A DNA stretch of 5,779 nucleotides from a virus (IMGVR_UViG_2690316105_000008), one strand, 5' to 3'; shown: positions 2,108 through 5,407, counted from the first letter of the stretch. Notes: a model not told the origin generated them from the letters alone. A program made the numbers and translations.

Positions 2108-3615
2108 TGTTCTGGAATAAGAAAAATAAAAATTCAGAAACTAAACCCAAGAAGATTAAACAGGAACGTTCCTTAAAACAAAGTACCTTAAAACGAGATC
2201 TACAGGCAGTACGCAACACATCAGTAATGAACTTCGGATTCAATTCAAACTCAGGCAGCAATATCAACTTCCTTCTGATGAAAGCACTACCTACCTTCAG
2301 GGCTTTCTCACGTGATGCAGTACTTAAGAATCCTATTGGTCGTAAGTACATGAACCTATCGGTAGATGGCGTTGTAGGCTCTGATGGCCTGTACGTTAAA
2401 CCTTCAGTAGAGATTGACGGTACTGAAGAAGAAATCAACGGAATCAATCTAACCTTGGAAAAGCTCTTTGACCGTTGGGCATATGATGCTGATCGTTTTA
2501 GTGTTGATGGCTCATTAAGTTTTGACCTGTTTCAGCAGAACGCAGAGAAGGTAAGGGTCCAGGATGGTGAATGCTTTATTCGTATACACAATATTAATAA
2601 TACCATCAAGTTAGAAATTCTCGATACGGTTCGTTTGCTTCAGTTAAATAATCAACGTTTGAGTAATGGTAATTATATTAGTAATGGTATTGAATTTGAT
2701 AAATGGCATAAGCCAGTTAATTACTATTTCTGTAAATTCGATCCTGTTACCTATACTTATATCACTGGCGATTATGAAGTAATTCCCGCTGCGGAAATCT
2801 GTCACTACTTTATTGCTGATCAACAAGGCCAGGAACGCGGATTGCCGGACATGGTTGCAACTTCCAAATTAATGGAAGATCTCAAGAACTTCACTGAGGC
2901 TGCGTTAACTGCGAAACGTGTATCTGCATCGTCAATGGCTTTTATTACCAATAATAACGACACTACCAGTACTGATCTGTTAGGGGCTGATGAACGAGAA
3001 GAAGTTACACCAGTATATACAGAGTATTTTGAAGCTGGCTTTATTGGTGAGTTAGCCGAAGGGCAGGATATTAAAACTGTTACACCTACTAATGGTGTTG
3101 ATGGGATTGATCAATTTACCAATGAATTGATGAATCAGATCTCGATGGGTCTGAACATAACAAAGCAAGCCTTATTATCTGATACATCCAATGCTTCATT
3201 TAGTGCAAGCCGACTTACTGAGAAATTACAACAAACTACATTCCGTACCCGTACTAATGTACTAATCAGTAAAGTACTTAAACCAATTTATATCGCCTGG
3301 TTAAAGAACGAAATGCTAAATAACAATAAGTTAAATCTAAGTTTCTCGAGCTTTGATGATCTTATTTGTGCTCGGTATATTTCTCAAAAGCCAATTAGTT
3401 TAGATCCTGTAAAGGATATACAGGCTGAACTACTCCAGTTAGAAGCAGGTATTAAATCTAAAACACAGGTTATTGCTGAGTTAGGCGGTGATCCAGTGAA
3501 GGTATTAGCAGAGGTACAGGCAGAAAAGGATAAAGAAAATAAAAACAAGGAAGTAATCCAGGATGGAAATGAAAAACCAGAAGAGGGAACTAACGAAACC
3601 CCTACAGGCGATTAA
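2107..3615 (+). CDS. Portal protein, lambda gpB family
   Basis: 502-aa ORF. N-terminal [18 protein letters not shown] and C-terminal [30 protein letters not shown] resemble lambda gpB as recalled (LPNFTRGNARADDLVRNNG; AAGLGVSYEQL..SYSTARAS..LCWLEEA). Gene order terminase-W-portal. Start overlaps the upstream stop. Confidence 0.85.
3559..3562 (+). promoter_or_regulatory. Possible Shine-Dalgarno (AGGA) favouring ATG 3569 as the true start of the protease-capsid CDS
   Basis: AGGA 3559-3562 overlaps ATG 3563 and sits about 6 nt before ATG 3569; AAGGA at 3547-3551 could serve ATG 3563 instead. Start is ambiguous. Confidence 0.3.
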
Positions 3616-5407
3616 TACAGAATCGCGTACCATCGAAGTAGCGTTTTGTTCAGAAACCCCTGTAGAACGTGAAATCAACGGTCAAATCTATAACGAAATT
3701 CTTCTATGTGGTTCCAGTAACGCAGACCTAACCCGCCTTAATAACAATGGGGCAGTACTCTTTAACCATAACCGTGATGATCTTATTGGTGCTGTAGTTG
3801 ATGCACGAGTGGATGCTGATCGCGTTGGTAGAGCTACATTACGAATTAGCAGTACCGCCAACGATGAATGGGAAATGATTCAGGAAGGCGTACTAACCCA
3901 TATTAGCATTGGCTATAACATTAATGATTATCAAATTGATGGTAATAATATCTATGTTACCAACTACGAAATTTATGAAATCTCATTAGTAACAGTACCT
4001 GCCGATCCTACCGTTGGGGTAGGTCGTTCAATGGACTCACAACTTGCATTGAAATCACTAAATAAAGAAGGTGAAACAATTCAAGAGGGTCAAATGGATA
4101 TGGATAATCCAGAAAACGAAAAGGAATCAATTGTTGATAGTACTGAAGAAGTAAATGAAACAATTGAAGAGGCATTAGTAGAGCCATCGGTCGAATATGC
4201 AGAAGAAATCAAACAAGAATTAAGTGATGAAGAACTTTTAGAAATTATCTCTACTCGACCTGATTTGCTCAATAAAGTACATGGTGAAGAACCAGAAAGT
4301 ATAAATAGTACAGAAGATACTGAACGTGTTCGTGAATTAGAAGCACTCGGTAAAGTACTTAATATTGATGTATCTGAAGCAATTGAAACAGGAATTTCAA
4401 TTTCAGATTTCAAACGTCAATTGAATGACATTAAACAAAATCCTCTTCATGATAAGGAAATCAAAGAAATGGATAATAAAAATCTATTAAAAGATATGGT
4501 ACGTGCCATTAAAACTGGCGATAAATCTGCTCTTGAAGCATATGAACGTGGTATTAATGGTTTTGTACGTGCGGCTGTACCAAGTACTAATACTACTACC
4601 GCTGCTGGCGTTGTAGCTGATGACCTACAAGATCAATACATTCCAGAACTACTAAAAATTTCTGCACTTGGTGAACTAAACACCACTGTTTATTCTGGCC
4701 TTGCAGGTCGCGGTACTCTAAGTATTCCAAAAGCGGCTGGTGTATCTCCGGTATTTAAATTCTATGGTGAAGCAGAAGCACAGGATGATTCTATTGCAAG
4801 CTTTACTAAAGTAACCCTAAGCCCTAAAGCTTTTGGTGGTGCTATTCCACTATCCAAACAAGCAATTCTAACGGCTCCAAATATTGAATCATTTGTACAA
4901 AGTGAACTACTACGGTATGCCGCTCAGGGTCTTGAGCAAAATGTAATGGATAAAGTAGTTGCCGCTGCTCCGGTGTTCAATGTTGAAACTGCTGGTTCTA
5001 TTACTCTTGAAGATGTTCAGGGTGCAGTAGCGAAGCTGGCACAGGCTAACGTTGATATGCGTGGCGTTAAAGCTGTTATGAACGCTAAAACCCTAAGTAC
5101 CCTACGTCAGATTGCAGTACTTGATAACACTGCTGCTAAAGCAATGGTTGAAGGTTATCGCAGTACTGAAATGTGGCTTGCTGATGAAGTACGTGTAGTG
5201 ATTTCTGAATTCGTAGCAGATGGTACTATTCTAATGGGCGATTTCTCCAATGTAATTCTCGCTAATTGGGAAGGGCAGGAAGTAGATTATGACGATACAT
5301 CCTATCGTTCAAGTAACACTATCGTATATCGCGTATGGGATTACTCAGATATCGCACTTGCACACTCTGAAGCTTTCGTAAATATCGTTATTGGTAAAGC
5401 AGAATAA
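3563..5407 (+). CDS. Fusion polypeptide: HK97-type (S78-like) prohead protease + acidic scaffold/delta-like linker + HK97-fold major capsid protein
   Basis: 614-aa ORF. N-terminal domain has prohead-protease motifs [14 protein letters not shown] (His69, codon 3767-3769), [14 protein letters not shown] (Ser115, codon 3905-3907) and [11 protein letters not shown]. Residues ~165-335 are Glu/Asp-rich and helical-looking. C-terminal ~280 aa resemble HK97 gp5-type capsid, including LMGDFSNV and ..[13 protein letters not shown].. near the C-terminus (compare HK97 ..ERLALAHYRP.. as recalled). Tandem stops TAATAA at 5405-5410. Overlaps the portal 3' end by ~50 nt in another frame. Confidence 0.85.
3620..4057 (+). 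other. Prohead protease domain of the fusion protein (approx. aa 20-165)
   Basis: Contains candidate catalytic His69 and Ser115; the ~46-residue spacing is similar to the His/Ser dyad spacing recalled for HK97 gp4. Boundaries approximate. Confidence 0.7.
4058..4567 (+). other. Acidic, probably coiled-coil scaffold/delta-like linker of the fusion protein (approx. aa 166-335)
   Basis: Strong E/D enrichment (e.g. [51 protein letters not shown]); no catalytic motifs. The position matches the delta/scaffold region removed during HK97-type capsid maturation. Boundaries approximate. Confidence 0.5.
4568..5407 (+). other. HK97-fold major capsid protein domain of the fusion protein (approx. aa 336-614)
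   Basis: Pattern similarity to HK97-family major capsid proteins in the C-terminal third (..[18 protein letters not shown].., ..[18 protein letters not shown]..). Boundaries approximate. Confidence 0.75.

What the first reader, a model, noticed from the sequence alone, without database searches (positions are those of the whole stretch)
3563..5407. Single-polypeptide prohead protease - scaffold - HK97 capsid fusion inside an otherwise lambda-type head module
One 614-aa ORF combines an S78-like maturation protease (candidate dyad His69/Ser115), an acidic scaffold-like linker and an HK97-fold capsid domain. This implies self-processing that removes about 335 N-terminal residues during maturation, with protease and capsid made at fixed 1:1 stoichiometry. 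It sits between lambda-type terminase/W/portal and FII genes, whereas lambda itself uses the separate C, Nu3, D and E genes, so the head module is mosaic and unusually condensed.
Basis: partly seen in the sequence, partly recalled or inferred. Interest (0 to 1): 0.6.

Follow-up and report, generated by a model that had tools for sequence, protein, structure and literature searches.

The report
Fused protease–scaffold–capsid gene, defective prophage
The 614-codon gene really does join a capsid-maturation protease, a scaffold-like segment and an HK97-type capsid protein, but this three-in-one design is already catalogued in many phages, and this copy sits in an IS2-disrupted, dead prophage of Shigella sonnei.

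Summary
ORF 3563-5407 (614 aa) has a Peptidase_S78 domain with invariant His69/Ser115, which align to HK97 gp4 His65/Ser114. An acidic disordered linker and a conserved helical segment follow, then an HK97-fold capsid domain. It is not a frameshift artefact, because hundreds of independent homologues share the single ORF.

- The architecture is already catalogued (PHROG 617/4523; "major capsid protein and protease" in Xanthomonas phage Murka). It always travels with a gpA-type terminase, a ~176-aa adaptor and a lambda-family portal (VP882, R4C, Murka), so it is an old module, not a local mosaic.
- Gifsy-2 is an independent analogue, built from ClpP plus a capsid domain.
- The R4C virion structure holds only the C-terminal 268 of 629 residues, consistent with removal of about 335-346 residues here.
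- "Fixed 1:1 stoichiometry" is doubtful. A conserved in-frame ATG with a Shine-Dalgarno-like motif follows the protease domain (window ATG 4094), which suggests a nested protease-less product.
- The window is Shigella sonnei DNA bracketed by inverted IS2 ends that cut the terminase and FII-like genes, so the prophage is defective.

Interest is low. The nested start and a covarying hairpin at 5490-5530 are the only possibly new points.

The parts
3563..5407 (+). Composite capsid gene: 614-aa protease / scaffold-like / HK97-fold major capsid protein precursor (67.4 kDa). Its start overlaps the portal gene's 3' end by 53 nt.
   Evidence: ORF list; Pfam; PHROG 617 full-length; homologues; molecular weight.
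3563..4030 (+). Prohead serine protease domain (aa 1-156, Peptidase_S78). Catalytic His69 is codon 3767-3769 and Ser115 is codon 3905-3907. The domain ends with the invariant VPAD...G154-R155 landmark.
   Evidence: Pfam 38.8 bits > 21; invariant H69/S115; alignment to HK97 gp4 H65/S114; pLDDT 75-93; best fold match is T4 gp21.
4031..4309 (+). Acidic, predicted-disordered linker (aa 157-249; 28 D+E against 6 K+R, pI 4.05). It varies in length and sequence between relatives, except for a small T172-I173 island.
   Evidence: pLDDT <50 over 147-219 and 238-251, with short helices at 222-239; composition; alignment.
4083..4096 (+). Candidate internal ribosome-binding site: AAGAGGG (4083-4089), a 4-nt spacer (TCAA), then ATG 4094-4096 (Met178; a second ATG encodes Met180). 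The predicted product is 437 aa (47.7 kDa): scaffold plus capsid, without the protease.
   Evidence: Sequence; SD duplex -6.3 kcal/mol against -4.8 for the annotated start; family-wide enrichment. Inferred, not demonstrated.
4310..4570 (+). Conserved helical segment (aa 250-336), the likely scaffold or delta-domain equivalent. R255, E258, A273, G277 and F283 are invariant. It ends at invariant R336 (4568-4570), the candidate maturation cleavage point.
   Evidence: Helices at 250-266, 271-276, 280-289 and 306-318; invariant columns including distant phages. The scaffold role and the cleavage site are inferred.
4571..5404 (+). HK97-fold major capsid protein domain (aa 337-614, 29.6 kDa if cleaved after R336).
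   Evidence: Pfam Phage_capsid 64.9 bits; PDB 8gta sequence match, E 2.4e-9, aa 351-604; Foldseek 8gta E 3e-16 and HK97 1ohg E 3.5e-13.
1..64 (-). End of an IS2 copy, the exact reverse complement of 5716-5779. This copy interrupts the terminase large-subunit gene.
   Evidence: megablast to IS2 / IS3-family elements; sequence; S. sonnei loci and the 5-bp GAATG target duplication.
65..1565 (+). 3' part of a gpA-type terminase large-subunit gene. The N-terminal ~108 profile positions of the ATPase domain are missing; they lie beyond the IS2 in S. sonnei 53G.
   Evidence: Pfam GpA_ATPase profile 109-247 only, plus GpA_nuclease; upstream 104-aa GpA_ATPase fragment in L001.
1577..2107 (+). 176-aa head-tail joining/adaptor-type gene, in lambda W's position but not a detectable W homologue.
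   Evidence: phrog_5774, E 8.7e-11; the same family at the same position in VP882, R4C and Murka; the R4C counterpart is the structurally assigned adaptor.
2107..3615 (+). Lambda-family portal protein gene (502 aa).
   Evidence: Pfam Phage_portal_2, 201 bits.
5421..5715 (+). FII-like / head-closure gene, cut after codon ~98 by a second IS2. The ORF continues artificially into IS2 up to 5765.
   Evidence: Phage_attach 21.5 bits, below cut-off; phrog_82 E 0.005; the intact 107-aa version is in L001 and the IS2 junction is at 5715/5716.
5490..5530 (+). Conserved 17-bp stem / 7-nt loop hairpin followed by TTCTATT. It starts 83 nt after the capsid gene stop and lies inside the FII-like ORF. It is a possible leaky terminator or mRNA 3' stabiliser.
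   Evidence: Terminator scan; -26 kcal/mol and conserved at +64..+79 in relatives; covariation. Function is inferred.
5716..5779 (+). End of a second IS2 copy in inverted orientation relative to the first, inserted in the FII-like gene.

Best explanation
**What it is.** This is the composite head gene of a phage head module that recurs across myophages and siphophages, found here in a siphovirus-type prophage. One reading frame encodes three parts:
1. An HK97-gp4-type (S78) serine prohead protease, aa 1-156, with catalytic His69/Ser115.
2. An acidic disordered linker plus a conserved helical segment, aa 157-336. This plays the role of a scaffold or delta domain.
3. An HK97-fold major capsid protein, aa ~337-614.

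**How it most likely works.**
- The precursor assembles on the lambda-family portal, with the N-terminal parts pointing inward.
- The tethered protease then removes everything upstream of the capsid domain, probably cutting after invariant R336.
- This leaves a ~30-kDa shell protein that expands on DNA packaging.

**Shown here:** the domain identities, the conserved catalytic residues, the folds, and the conservation of the single ORF and of the whole terminase-adaptor-portal-fusion module.

**Supported indirectly:** removal of the N-terminal part. The virion capsid chain of the relative R4C is only the last 268 of 629 residues.

**Inferred (probability about 0.5):** the gene is 'nested'. A conserved internal SD+ATG just after the protease domain (window ATG 4094, Met178) would also produce a protease-less scaffold-capsid protein. 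The protease dose would then be set by translation rather than fixed at 1:1, as in lambda C/Nu3 and herpesvirus UL26/UL26.5.

**In this locus** the gene is a relic. The prophage lies in Shigella sonnei. Its terminase is split by IS2, and in this strain its FII-like gene is also cut by IS2.
For: - Pfam S78 and Phage_capsid both score above their cut-offs.
- The full-length PHROG 617 match has E 9.5e-84.
- H69 and S115 are invariant and align to gp4 H65/S114.
- The AF2 model has three parts. Fold matches are the R4C and HK97 capsids and T4 gp21 protease.
- The R4C precursor is 629 aa and its virion chain is 268 aa, residues 362-629.
- Module conservation is seen in VP882, R4C, Murka and RcRhea.
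- The architecture is widespread.

Nested start:
- A Met lies at +7..+45 after the G-x-G-R landmark in 22 of 24 lineage clusters (53% expected, p = 6e-5).
- 14 of 28 such ATGs have SD dG <= -5.5, against 24 of 258 ATGs elsewhere (p = 5.6e-7) and 94 of 936 codons in the same window (p = 5e-8).
- 12 of 24 clusters have ATG+SD, against a position-permutation null of 2.9 +/- 1.5 (0 of 2000 permutations reach 12).
- The motif persists under different encoded residues: QEGQ, RGAE, SEDA, EGEL, QEERT.
- The independent Gifsy-2 fusion also has GAGGAG + 9 nt + ATG about 19 residues after its ClpP domain (anecdotal).

Defective context.
Against: - No experiment here shows proteolysis, the cleavage site or internal initiation.
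- The SD signal is partly a by-product of the acidic/glycine residues. Synonymous-codon resampling gives 7.7 +/- 1.6 clusters against 12 observed, p about 0.009.
- Half of the clusters lack a convincing SD, and two lack the Met altogether.
- The lineage clusters are related, so the p-values overstate independence.
- The protease fold match is modest (TM 0.48, E 8.6e-3), and only one of the five N-domain models was confident.
- The deposited R4C chain may reflect what was modelled rather than a measured N-terminus. The paper never mentions a protease or cleavage.
- In this window the prophage is defective, so the mechanism describes the family, not activity at this locus.
Confidence: 0.8

Rival explanations
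1. The gene has a single translation product, so every capsid subunit carries its own protease (strict 1:1). All ~415 protease and scaffold parts are digested away inside the prohead.
For: - There is one uninterrupted ORF in all relatives.
- No nested gene is annotated in any record inspected.
- 12 of 24 lineage clusters lack a convincing internal SD.
- Part of the SD signal is explained by amino-acid composition.
Against: - A Met is conserved at the same place in an otherwise variable linker in 22 of 24 clusters.
- SD-like motifs are about five times more frequent upstream of these ATGs than elsewhere.
- The window's internal SD (-6.3 kcal/mol) is stronger than that of the annotated start (-4.8).
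- Nested starts are the known solution for protease/scaffold ratios in lambda, HSV-1 and HFTV1.
Confidence: 0.4
2. The fusion is an artefact. A frameshift or sequencing error joined separate protease and capsid genes.
For: None was found. In HK97 itself the protease and capsid genes are separate.
Against: - The identical ORF is on record in 149 blocks of the assembly collection, including complete S. sonnei chromosomes.
- The window is 100% identical to strain 53G over 5,715 nt.
- The fused ORF is conserved in isolated phages and in hundreds of diverged homologues.
- A dedicated full-length PHROG family exists.
Confidence: 0.01
3. The N-terminal domain is a degenerate, inactive protease fold kept only as an internal scaffold or cargo. 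Cleavage, if any, is done by another enzyme.
For: - The Pfam S78 match covers only profile positions 50-152 of 165, at a moderate score.
- In R4C the S78 model does not reach E <= 0.001.
- The fold match is modest.
Against: - The residues equivalent to HK97 gp4's catalytic His65 and Ser114 are invariant across all 19 aligned sequences, including R4C.
- No other protease gene lies in the head module of the window or of VP882, R4C or Murka.
Confidence: 0.05
4. The intact gene is kept by the Shigella host for a function of its own, for example an encapsulin-like compartment or GTA/PICI-like particles, rather than being a decaying relic.
For: - The 614-codon ORF, the portal and the adaptor genes are intact although the flanking genes are broken.
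- Some fold matches are to encapsulins and cf-PICI capsids, which is expected for any HK97 fold.
Against: - The terminase is split by IS2, and further IS copies litter the prophage.
- S. sonnei is known, from general knowledge, for recent IS expansion. Intact ORFs are therefore expected simply from lack of time to decay.
- No cargo or host-type regulation is evident.
Confidence: 0.03

Closest known systems
Fused S78 protease - major capsid genes of PHROG 617 / 4523: Vibrio phage VP882 and Halomonas phiHAP-1 (Hapunavirus), Xanthomonas FoX/Murka (Foxunavirus), Dinoroseobacter R4C and Rhodobacter RcRhea (Cronusvirus)
   Same: - Same domain order and length (598-684 aa), with the same invariant His/Ser and VPAD...GxGR motifs.
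- Same conserved helical middle segment.
- Same upstream gene order: gpA terminase, ~176-aa phrog_5774 adaptor, lambda-family portal.
- In VP882 the fusion start also overlaps the portal's 3' end by tens of nucleotides.
- Murka is annotated 'major capsid protein and protease'.
- The mature R4C capsid is solved (PDB 8GTA).

   Different: Only 23-31% identical to these isolated phages. Close relatives (44-100% identity) are unnamed enterobacterial prophages. This copy lies in a defective, IS-ridden prophage.
Salmonella phage Gifsy-2 'tripartite capsid gene' (Effantin et al. [quoted passage not shown]
   Same: - One gene encodes protease, a ~190-residue middle part and the capsid protein.
- It follows a gpA terminase, a small gene and a lambda-family portal, and overlaps the portal's 3' end.
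- From my own recollection of the paper, which I could not read here: virions are T=7 and contain only the processed C-terminal part.

   Different: - The protease is ClpP-type (Pfam CLP_protease), not S78.
- The capsid domain is Phage_capsid_4 / Mu gpT-like.
- There is no detectable sequence similarity (BLASTP E 0.45).
- A cement/decoration gene follows it, and none is present here.
- It is therefore an independent, convergent fusion.
Phage HK97 gp4 (protease) and gp5 (delta domain + capsid)
   Same: The protease family and catalytic residues are the same (H65/S114 = H69/S115). The capsid fold is the same. In both, an N-terminal assembly domain is removed by the protease.
   Different: - In HK97 the protease is a separate gene, and the delta domain has 103 residues (general knowledge).
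- HK97 has a different terminase and portal type.
- The residue aligned to the HK97 crosslinking Lys169 is Gln407 here. The alignment is weak, so chainmail crosslinking is not indicated.
Nested protease/scaffold genes: lambda C/Nu3, HSV-1 UL26/UL26.5, haloarchaeal virus HFTV1 gp17/gp17.5
   Same: There is an in-frame internal start downstream of the protease domain. In lambda an SD precedes both starts. The shorter product lacks the protease and sets the protease:scaffold ratio. The window has AAGAGGG-N4-ATG at the equivalent place.
   Different: In those systems the capsid protein is a separate gene. Here the nested product would be scaffold plus capsid. Internal initiation is only inferred from sequence statistics.
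Actinobacteriophage 'major capsid and protease fusion' genes (Arthrobacter clusters AM, AU, AN; Rhodococcus RRH1)
   Same: Capsid maturation protease and major capsid subunit are fused in a single gene, described as an unusual but recurrent feature (PMC5513430; genome announcements).
   Different: The hosts are Gram-positive, and the clusters themselves share little sequence similarity. The relationship to this family was not tested here.

Membership tests
Peptidase_S78 (HK97 gp4-type prohead serine protease) | Profile HMM match above the curated threshold | tested here: met
   PF04586: 38.8 bits against a cut-off of 21, aa 61-153, profile positions 50-152 of 165.
Peptidase_S78 (HK97 gp4-type prohead serine protease) | Catalytic His and Ser at the positions of HK97 gp4 His65 and Ser114 | tested here: met
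   hhalign places H69 on gp4 H65 and S115 on gp4 S114. Both are invariant in 19 and in 55 aligned sequences. That His65/Ser114 are gp4's catalytic residues rests on my knowledge of the literature.
Peptidase_S78 (HK97 gp4-type prohead serine protease) | Herpesvirus/T4 gp21-like prohead protease fold | tested here: met
   The N-domain model (pLDDT 73.6) has T4 gp21 chains (5jbl) as its top three PDB hits, with prob 0.97-1.00 and TM 0.46-0.48. Pseudorabies pUL26N is at rank 45. The scores are modest.
Peptidase_S78 (HK97 gp4-type prohead serine protease) | Proteolytic activity on the capsid precursor | not testable with these tools
   This needs expression of wild type against H69A/S115A, followed by SDS-PAGE and mass spectrometry.
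HK97-fold major capsid protein (Pfam Phage_capsid PF05065) | Profile HMM match above threshold | tested here: met
   64.9 bits against a cut-off of 24.2, aa 350-608, profile positions 4-278 of 280.
HK97-fold major capsid protein (Pfam Phage_capsid PF05065) | HK97 fold (N-arm, E-loop, P and A domains) | tested here: met
   Foldseek prob 1.00: 8gta E 3.4e-16 (TMt 0.69), 1ohg E 3.5e-13, and HK97 prohead chains with TMt up to 0.71. pLDDT is 70-91 over 358-609.
HK97-fold major capsid protein (Pfam Phage_capsid PF05065) | HK97-type Lys-Asn chainmail crosslink residues (a feature of HK97 itself, not of the whole family) | tested here: inconclusive
   The position aligned to gp5 K169 is Q407, but the profile alignment has only 60% probability. 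The R4C authors contrast their capsid with HK97's covalently cross-linked one.
PHROG 617 / 4523 fused 'major head (and protease) protein' | End-to-end match to the fused-architecture profile | tested here: met
   phrog_617: aa 3-607 to profile 6-620/626, E 9.5e-84. phrog_4523: aa 2-286, E 2.6e-38.
PHROG 617 / 4523 fused 'major head (and protease) protein' | Genomic context: gpA terminase, phrog_5774 adaptor, lambda-family portal, then the fusion | tested here: met
   Window; VP882, R4C and Murka.
Gifsy-2-type tripartite capsid gene | Order protease - middle domain - capsid in one ORF after a lambda-family portal | tested here: met
   Window; Gifsy-2 STM1034.3n, 696 aa.
Gifsy-2-type tripartite capsid gene | ClpP-family protease domain and sequence homology to the Gifsy-2 protein | tested here: not met
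   Gifsy-2 has CLP_protease + Phage_capsid_4 and the window has S78 + Phage_capsid. BLASTP E is 0.45. The window gene works like the Gifsy-2 gene but is not a member of its family.
Gifsy-2-type tripartite capsid gene | Adjacent cement/decoration protein gene | tested here: not met
   Gifsy-2 has Phage_cement_2 directly downstream. In the window the next ORF is FII-like, and no Pfam or PHROG decoration hit was found.
Nested protease/scaffold gene (lambda C/Nu3 type) | In-frame internal start codon with a ribosome-binding site downstream of the protease domain | tested here: met
   AAGAGGG-TCAA-ATG at 4083-4096, with family-wide enrichment. This is sequence-level evidence only.
Nested protease/scaffold gene (lambda C/Nu3 type) | Two protein products actually made from the one frame | not testable with these tools
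   This needs initiation-site ribosome profiling, N-terminal proteomics or western blots.
Lambda-type head module (A, W, B, C, Nu3, D, E, FI, FII) | gpA terminase and gpB-family portal | tested here: met
   GpA_ATPase, GpA_nuclease and Phage_portal_2 all score above their cut-offs.
Lambda-type head module (A, W, B, C, Nu3, D, E, FI, FII) | gpW and gpFII homologues | tested here: inconclusive
   The 176-aa ORF has no W-family Pfam hit, only phrog_5774. The VP882 and Murka counterparts hit phrog_118 'head-tail adaptor' weakly in their C-terminal parts. FII: Phage_attach 21.5 bits, below the cut-off of 26.
Lambda-type head module (A, W, B, C, Nu3, D, E, FI, FII) | Lambda-type gpC protease, Nu3 scaffold, gpD decoration and gpE capsid genes | tested here: not met
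   No such ORFs or Pfam hits were found. The single S78-capsid fusion occupies that space.

The most novel reading that the evidence does not exclude
The three-in-one capsid gene is really a two-product nested gene. A conserved internal ribosome-binding site just after the protease domain (window ATG 4094) yields a protease-less scaffold-capsid protein that co-assembles with a minority of full-length protease-bearing subunits. This would extend the lambda C/Nu3 and herpesvirus UL26/UL26.5 dosing logic to a gene that also contains the capsid protein. A covarying hairpin about 70 nt into the next ORF would be a second expression-ratio device, for the capsid gene relative to the downstream genes. 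Neither feature is annotated in the relatives' records I inspected, and my targeted literature searches found no description of a nested start in a protease-capsid fusion.
Probability: 0.45. Interest if true: 0.45.

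Novelty: already known. Interest (0 to 1): 0.25.

Why it matters
As stated, the finding adds little. Protease-scaffold-capsid fusions are catalogued (PHROG 617/4523; annotations such as 'major capsid protein and protease'). One analogue, Gifsy-2, has been studied experimentally, and the mature capsid of a true relative (R4C) is solved. This copy is a relic in an IS-riddled Shigella sonnei prophage.

What could matter is the correction to the mechanism. If the conserved internal start is real, these genes show how a phage can keep the protease, scaffold and shell in one frame and still tune the protease dose. 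That would also tell annotators to call a second product in a large family of phage capsid genes. The R4C structural paper does not mention that its capsid protein is the C-terminal 43% of a protease-bearing precursor, so the family's maturation pathway is still undescribed experimentally.

Tried and rejected
- **Frameshift or sequencing artefact:** rejected by the comparative data.
- **Source of the block in E. coli complete genomes:** none holds it. Only the IS2 ends and a 75%-identical terminase matched. The source turned out to be Shigella sonnei.
- **The R4C paper as evidence for cleavage:** it never mentions a protease or cleavage. Only the length of the deposited chain is informative.
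- **RcRhea as an unfused relative that would mark the domain boundary:** its gene is also a 619-aa fusion.
- **The two 'putative phage-related protein' features in the original VP882 record:** they are the portal and the fusion, not a nested annotation. phiHAP-1 likewise has none.
- **Pairwise BLASTP of the 176-aa ORF against the R4C and VP882 adaptors:** no similarity. Only the PHROG profile links them.
- **Rfam scan of the window:** no match.
- **RNA fold around the internal start:** not unusual, z = -1.25.
- **Promoter scan:** fewer hits than in shuffles, so uninformative.
- **HK97 chainmail lysine:** not conserved at the aligned position, but the alignment is too weak to conclude anything.
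- **The Effantin et al. 2010 Gifsy-2 paper:** it could not be read. I verified the Gifsy-2 architecture directly instead.
- **Literature searches for a nested start inside a protease-capsid fusion:** none found.

Full report
**1. The observation**

The window has an ORF at exactly 3563..5407 on the + strand, 614 aa.
- Pfam finds Peptidase_S78 at aa 61-153 (38.8 bits, cut-off 21) and Phage_capsid at aa 350-608 (64.9 bits, cut-off 24.2).
- PHROGs has a family that covers the whole fused protein: phrog_617, aa 3-607 against profile 6-620/626, E 9.5e-84. Another family is named 'major head and protease protein' (phrog_4523, E 2.6e-38).
- The candidate dyad is right. His69 and Ser115 are invariant in an alignment that includes phages only 25-28% identical. 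A profile alignment places them on HK97 gp4 His65 and Ser114, which I know from the literature to be gp4's catalytic residues.

**2. Structure**

An AlphaFold model built from 55 homologues has these parts:
- a beta-rich domain at 16-146 (pLDDT about 75-86);
- a disordered stretch at 147-219;
- helices between 222 and 318;
- a second disordered stretch at 326-357;
- an alpha/beta domain at 358-609 (pLDDT 70-91).

Foldseek places the C-terminal domain on the capsid of roseophage R4C (8gta, E 3.4e-16) and on HK97 (1ohg, E 3.5e-13; prohead chains with TM up to 0.71). A separate model of aa 1-165 has the T4 gp21 capsid assembly protease as its top three PDB hits (prob 0.97-1.00, TM 0.46-0.48), with a herpesvirus protease further down. 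That is the expected fold at modest scores. The middle segment, aa 157-336, is acidic: 46 D+E against 21 K+R, pI 4.3.

**3. Not an artefact**

- The identical protein is on record in 149 blocks of the assembly collection, including complete Shigella sonnei chromosomes.
- The window is 100% identical to strain 53G over 5,715 nt.
- The word-indexed search found 748 homologues. Nearly all of the 120 listed are full-length and carry both Pfam domains, at 43-100% identity.
- IMG/VR gave at least 521 confirmed matches.
- The exhaustive search of 1.84 billion representatives gave 5,209 clusters at E <= 1e-3 and 2,283 at <= 1e-10. Nearly all of the top 150 are 575-690 aa, with the protease part matching near their N-terminus.

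**4. Context: a conserved module, not a local mosaic**

Upstream lie the 3' part of a gpA-type terminase, a 176-aa ORF and a lambda-family portal. Downstream lies a weak FII-like ORF.

The same order is found in Vibrio phage VP882, Dinoroseobacter phage R4C, Rhodobacter phage RcRhea and Xanthomonas phage Murka: gpA terminase, a ~176-aa phrog_5774 'head-tail joining' gene, a lambda-family portal, then the S78-capsid fusion. In VP882 the adaptor gene even has the same 176-aa length. Murka's gene is annotated 'major capsid protein and protease'. In R4C the counterpart of the 176-aa ORF is the structurally assigned adaptor.

So the combination of lambda-type packaging and portal genes with an HK97-type protease/capsid is old and widespread.

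**5. What is known about such fusions**

- Fused protease-capsid genes are described in Arthrobacter phage clusters AM, AU and AN and in Rhodococcus RRH1 (PMC5513430).
[quoted passage not shown] 2010, which I could not read).
- I checked Gifsy-2 directly. Its 696-aa gene is CLP_protease (28-202) plus Phage_capsid_4 (389-693). It follows a gpA terminase, a 68-aa gene and a lambda-family portal, and a cement-protein gene follows it.
- It has no detectable similarity to the window's protein (BLASTP E 0.45).

The Gifsy-2 gene is therefore an independent, analogous fusion. The window gene works like it but is not a member of its family.

**6. Processing**

R4C's 'major capsid protein' gene encodes 629 aa with the same protease motifs. 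The chain deposited for its 3.6-Å virion capsid has 268 residues, which are residues 362-629 of the precursor. The paper treats these as the MCP and never mentions a protease or cleavage. The first deposited residue corresponds to about A347 here.

Ten residues upstream lies R336, which is invariant in all 19 aligned sequences. That makes it a reasonable candidate for the P1 residue. By comparison, HK97 cuts gp5 after Lys103 (general knowledge).

It is supported indirectly and has not been demonstrated.

**7. Stoichiometry: a probable nested start**

Scanning for in-frame starts with anti-SD complementarity gave a recurrent hit shortly after the protease domain:
- window Met178: AAGAGGG-TCAA-ATG at 4083-4096, -6.3 kcal/mol, stronger than the annotated start at -4.8;
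- VP882 Met185: -9.4;
- R4C Met189: -9.5.

I then took 79 genes in 24 clusters (<75% identity), anchored on the invariant VPAD...GxGR landmark:
- 22 of 24 clusters have a Met at +7..+45 (53% expected, p = 6e-5).
- 14 of 28 such ATGs have an SD duplex of <= -5.5 kcal/mol. The comparison values are 24 of 258 ATGs elsewhere in the genes (p = 5.6e-7) and 94 of 936 codons in the same window (p = 5e-8).
- 12 of 24 clusters have ATG+SD, against 2.9 +/- 1.5 under position permutation (0 of 2000 reach 12).

The result holds for thresholds from -4.5 to -7.0. The nucleotide motif persists under different encoded residues (QEGQ, RGAE, SEDA, EGEL, QEERT).

A stricter null resamples synonymous codons while keeping the protein. 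It gives 7.7 +/- 1.6 against 12 observed (p about 0.009). Part of the signal therefore comes from the acidic/glycine residues themselves.

Other limits apply. The clusters are related. Half of them lack a good SD, though some may come from hosts that use SD little. No record annotates a nested gene.

Nested in-frame starts are the known device for setting protease:scaffold ratios in lambda (with SD sequences), HSV-1 and HFTV1. The independent Gifsy-2 fusion also has GAGGAG + 9 nt + ATG about 19 residues after its ClpP domain (anecdotal). I found no paper that describes this for a protease-capsid fusion.

I put the probability that internal initiation is real and functional at about 0.5. That is enough to call the 'fixed 1:1' claim doubtful.

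**8. The locus is defective**

- Window 1-64 and 5716-5779 are exact reverse complements of each other and match IS2 ends.
- In S. sonnei 53G the left IS2 sits inside the terminase gene with a 5-bp GAATG target duplication. The N-terminal terminase fragment lies on the other side of it. Consistently, the Pfam ATPase match starts at profile position 109.
- The right IS2 is an additional insertion after codon ~98 of the FII-like gene, as in assembly GCA_026013135.1.
- Other IS elements lie nearby.

The gene is thus an intact relic. The mechanism describes its family, not activity at this locus.

**9. Side finding: a conserved hairpin**

A 17-bp hairpin at 5490-5530 (-26 kcal/mol, followed by TTCTATT) starts 83 nt after the capsid stop, inside the FII-like ORF. 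The same structure sits at +64..+79 in many enterobacterial relatives whose capsid proteins are only 44-83% identical, often with different stem sequences. More distant relatives have terminator-like hairpins right after the stop.

On 19 distinct sequences:
- 88.5% of cells pair, against 42-58% when the partners are slid;
- 7 of 17 pairs change on both sides;
- 25 cells carry double changes, against 8.8 +/- 2.2 in shuffles (0 of 500 reach the observed value).

It is probably a leaky terminator or an mRNA 3' stabiliser that raises capsid expression relative to the downstream genes. HK97 has putative terminators after gp5.

**10. Verdict**

The architecture is already known. The possibly new elements are the inferred nested start and the covarying hairpin, and both need experiments.

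Noticed in passing
window 1-64 and 5716-5779; L001 5183-6502: The two window ends are exact reverse complements and are IS2 ends. The left IS2 splits the gpA terminase gene, with a 5-bp GAATG target duplication seen in S. sonnei 53G. The right IS2 is a strain-specific insertion that cuts the FII-like gene. The block is a piece of a defective Shigella sonnei prophage.
   Followed up: yes
window 5490-5530 (+); the same offset in L011-L013, L016, L017, L019, L022-L038, L042, L052, L054 and L067: A 17-bp stem / 7-nt loop hairpin (-26 kcal/mol, then TTCTATT) lies inside the FII-like ORF, starting 83 nt after the capsid gene stop. It is conserved in position across relatives, with compensatory stem changes: 88.5% of cells paired against 42-58% in slid controls, and 25 double-change cells against 8.8 +/- 2.2 in shuffles. 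It may be a leaky terminator or an mRNA stabiliser.
   Followed up: partly
window 1577-2107 (+): The 176-aa ORF between terminase and portal is much longer than lambda W (68 aa) and has no Pfam hit. It belongs to phrog_5774 'head-tail joining', as do the same-position genes of VP882 (also 176 aa), R4C (the structurally assigned adaptor) and Murka. Pairwise BLAST to those genes finds nothing.
   Followed up: partly
window 3563-3615: The fusion ORF starts 53 nt before the portal gene's stop, in another frame. The same kind of overlap is seen in VP882 (44 nt) and in the unrelated Gifsy-2 fusion (86 nt). This suggests translational coupling of the portal and capsid genes.
   Followed up: no
proteins P0207, P0222, P0254 and P0164; loci L073-L097 have long open frames upstream of the protease: Some distant relatives are 800-890 aa with an extra N-terminal domain ahead of the protease: histidine phosphatase (His_Phos_1) in P0207 and Hva1_TUDOR in P0222 and P0254. 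These could be cargo carried into the prohead. P0164 begins with the last 58 profile positions of a lambda-family portal, which may be a gene-call or read-through artefact.
   Followed up: partly
window 4076-4081 (T172-I173) and codon Met303 (4469-4471): There is a small conserved T-I/V island in the otherwise variable acidic linker, just upstream of the candidate internal start. It could be part of the start-site context or a cleavage motif. Met303 is invariant among the 55 enterobacterial homologues but has no SD-like motif upstream.
   Followed up: no
L103 7132-7134 (Gifsy-2 Met221 of STM1034.3n): The independent ClpP-capsid fusion of Gifsy-2 also has an SD-like GAGGAG 9 nt upstream of an in-frame ATG, about 19 residues after its protease domain (-6.7 kcal/mol). 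This is a single case with no statistics.
   Followed up: partly
L001 12594-15245 (downstream of the window in S. sonnei 53G): An 883-aa protein with a Peptidase_S74 domain (the intramolecular chaperone of tail spikes and fibres) is encoded between the head-completion genes and the major tail protein gene. That is an unusual position for a fibre-like gene.
   Followed up: no
whole window: G+C is about 30-47% (mostly 35-44%), which is low for a Shigella/Escherichia chromosome. No complete E. coli genome holds the block; the best match is 75% identity over the terminase only. The prophage probably came from outside the usual E. coli phage pool.
   Followed up: no
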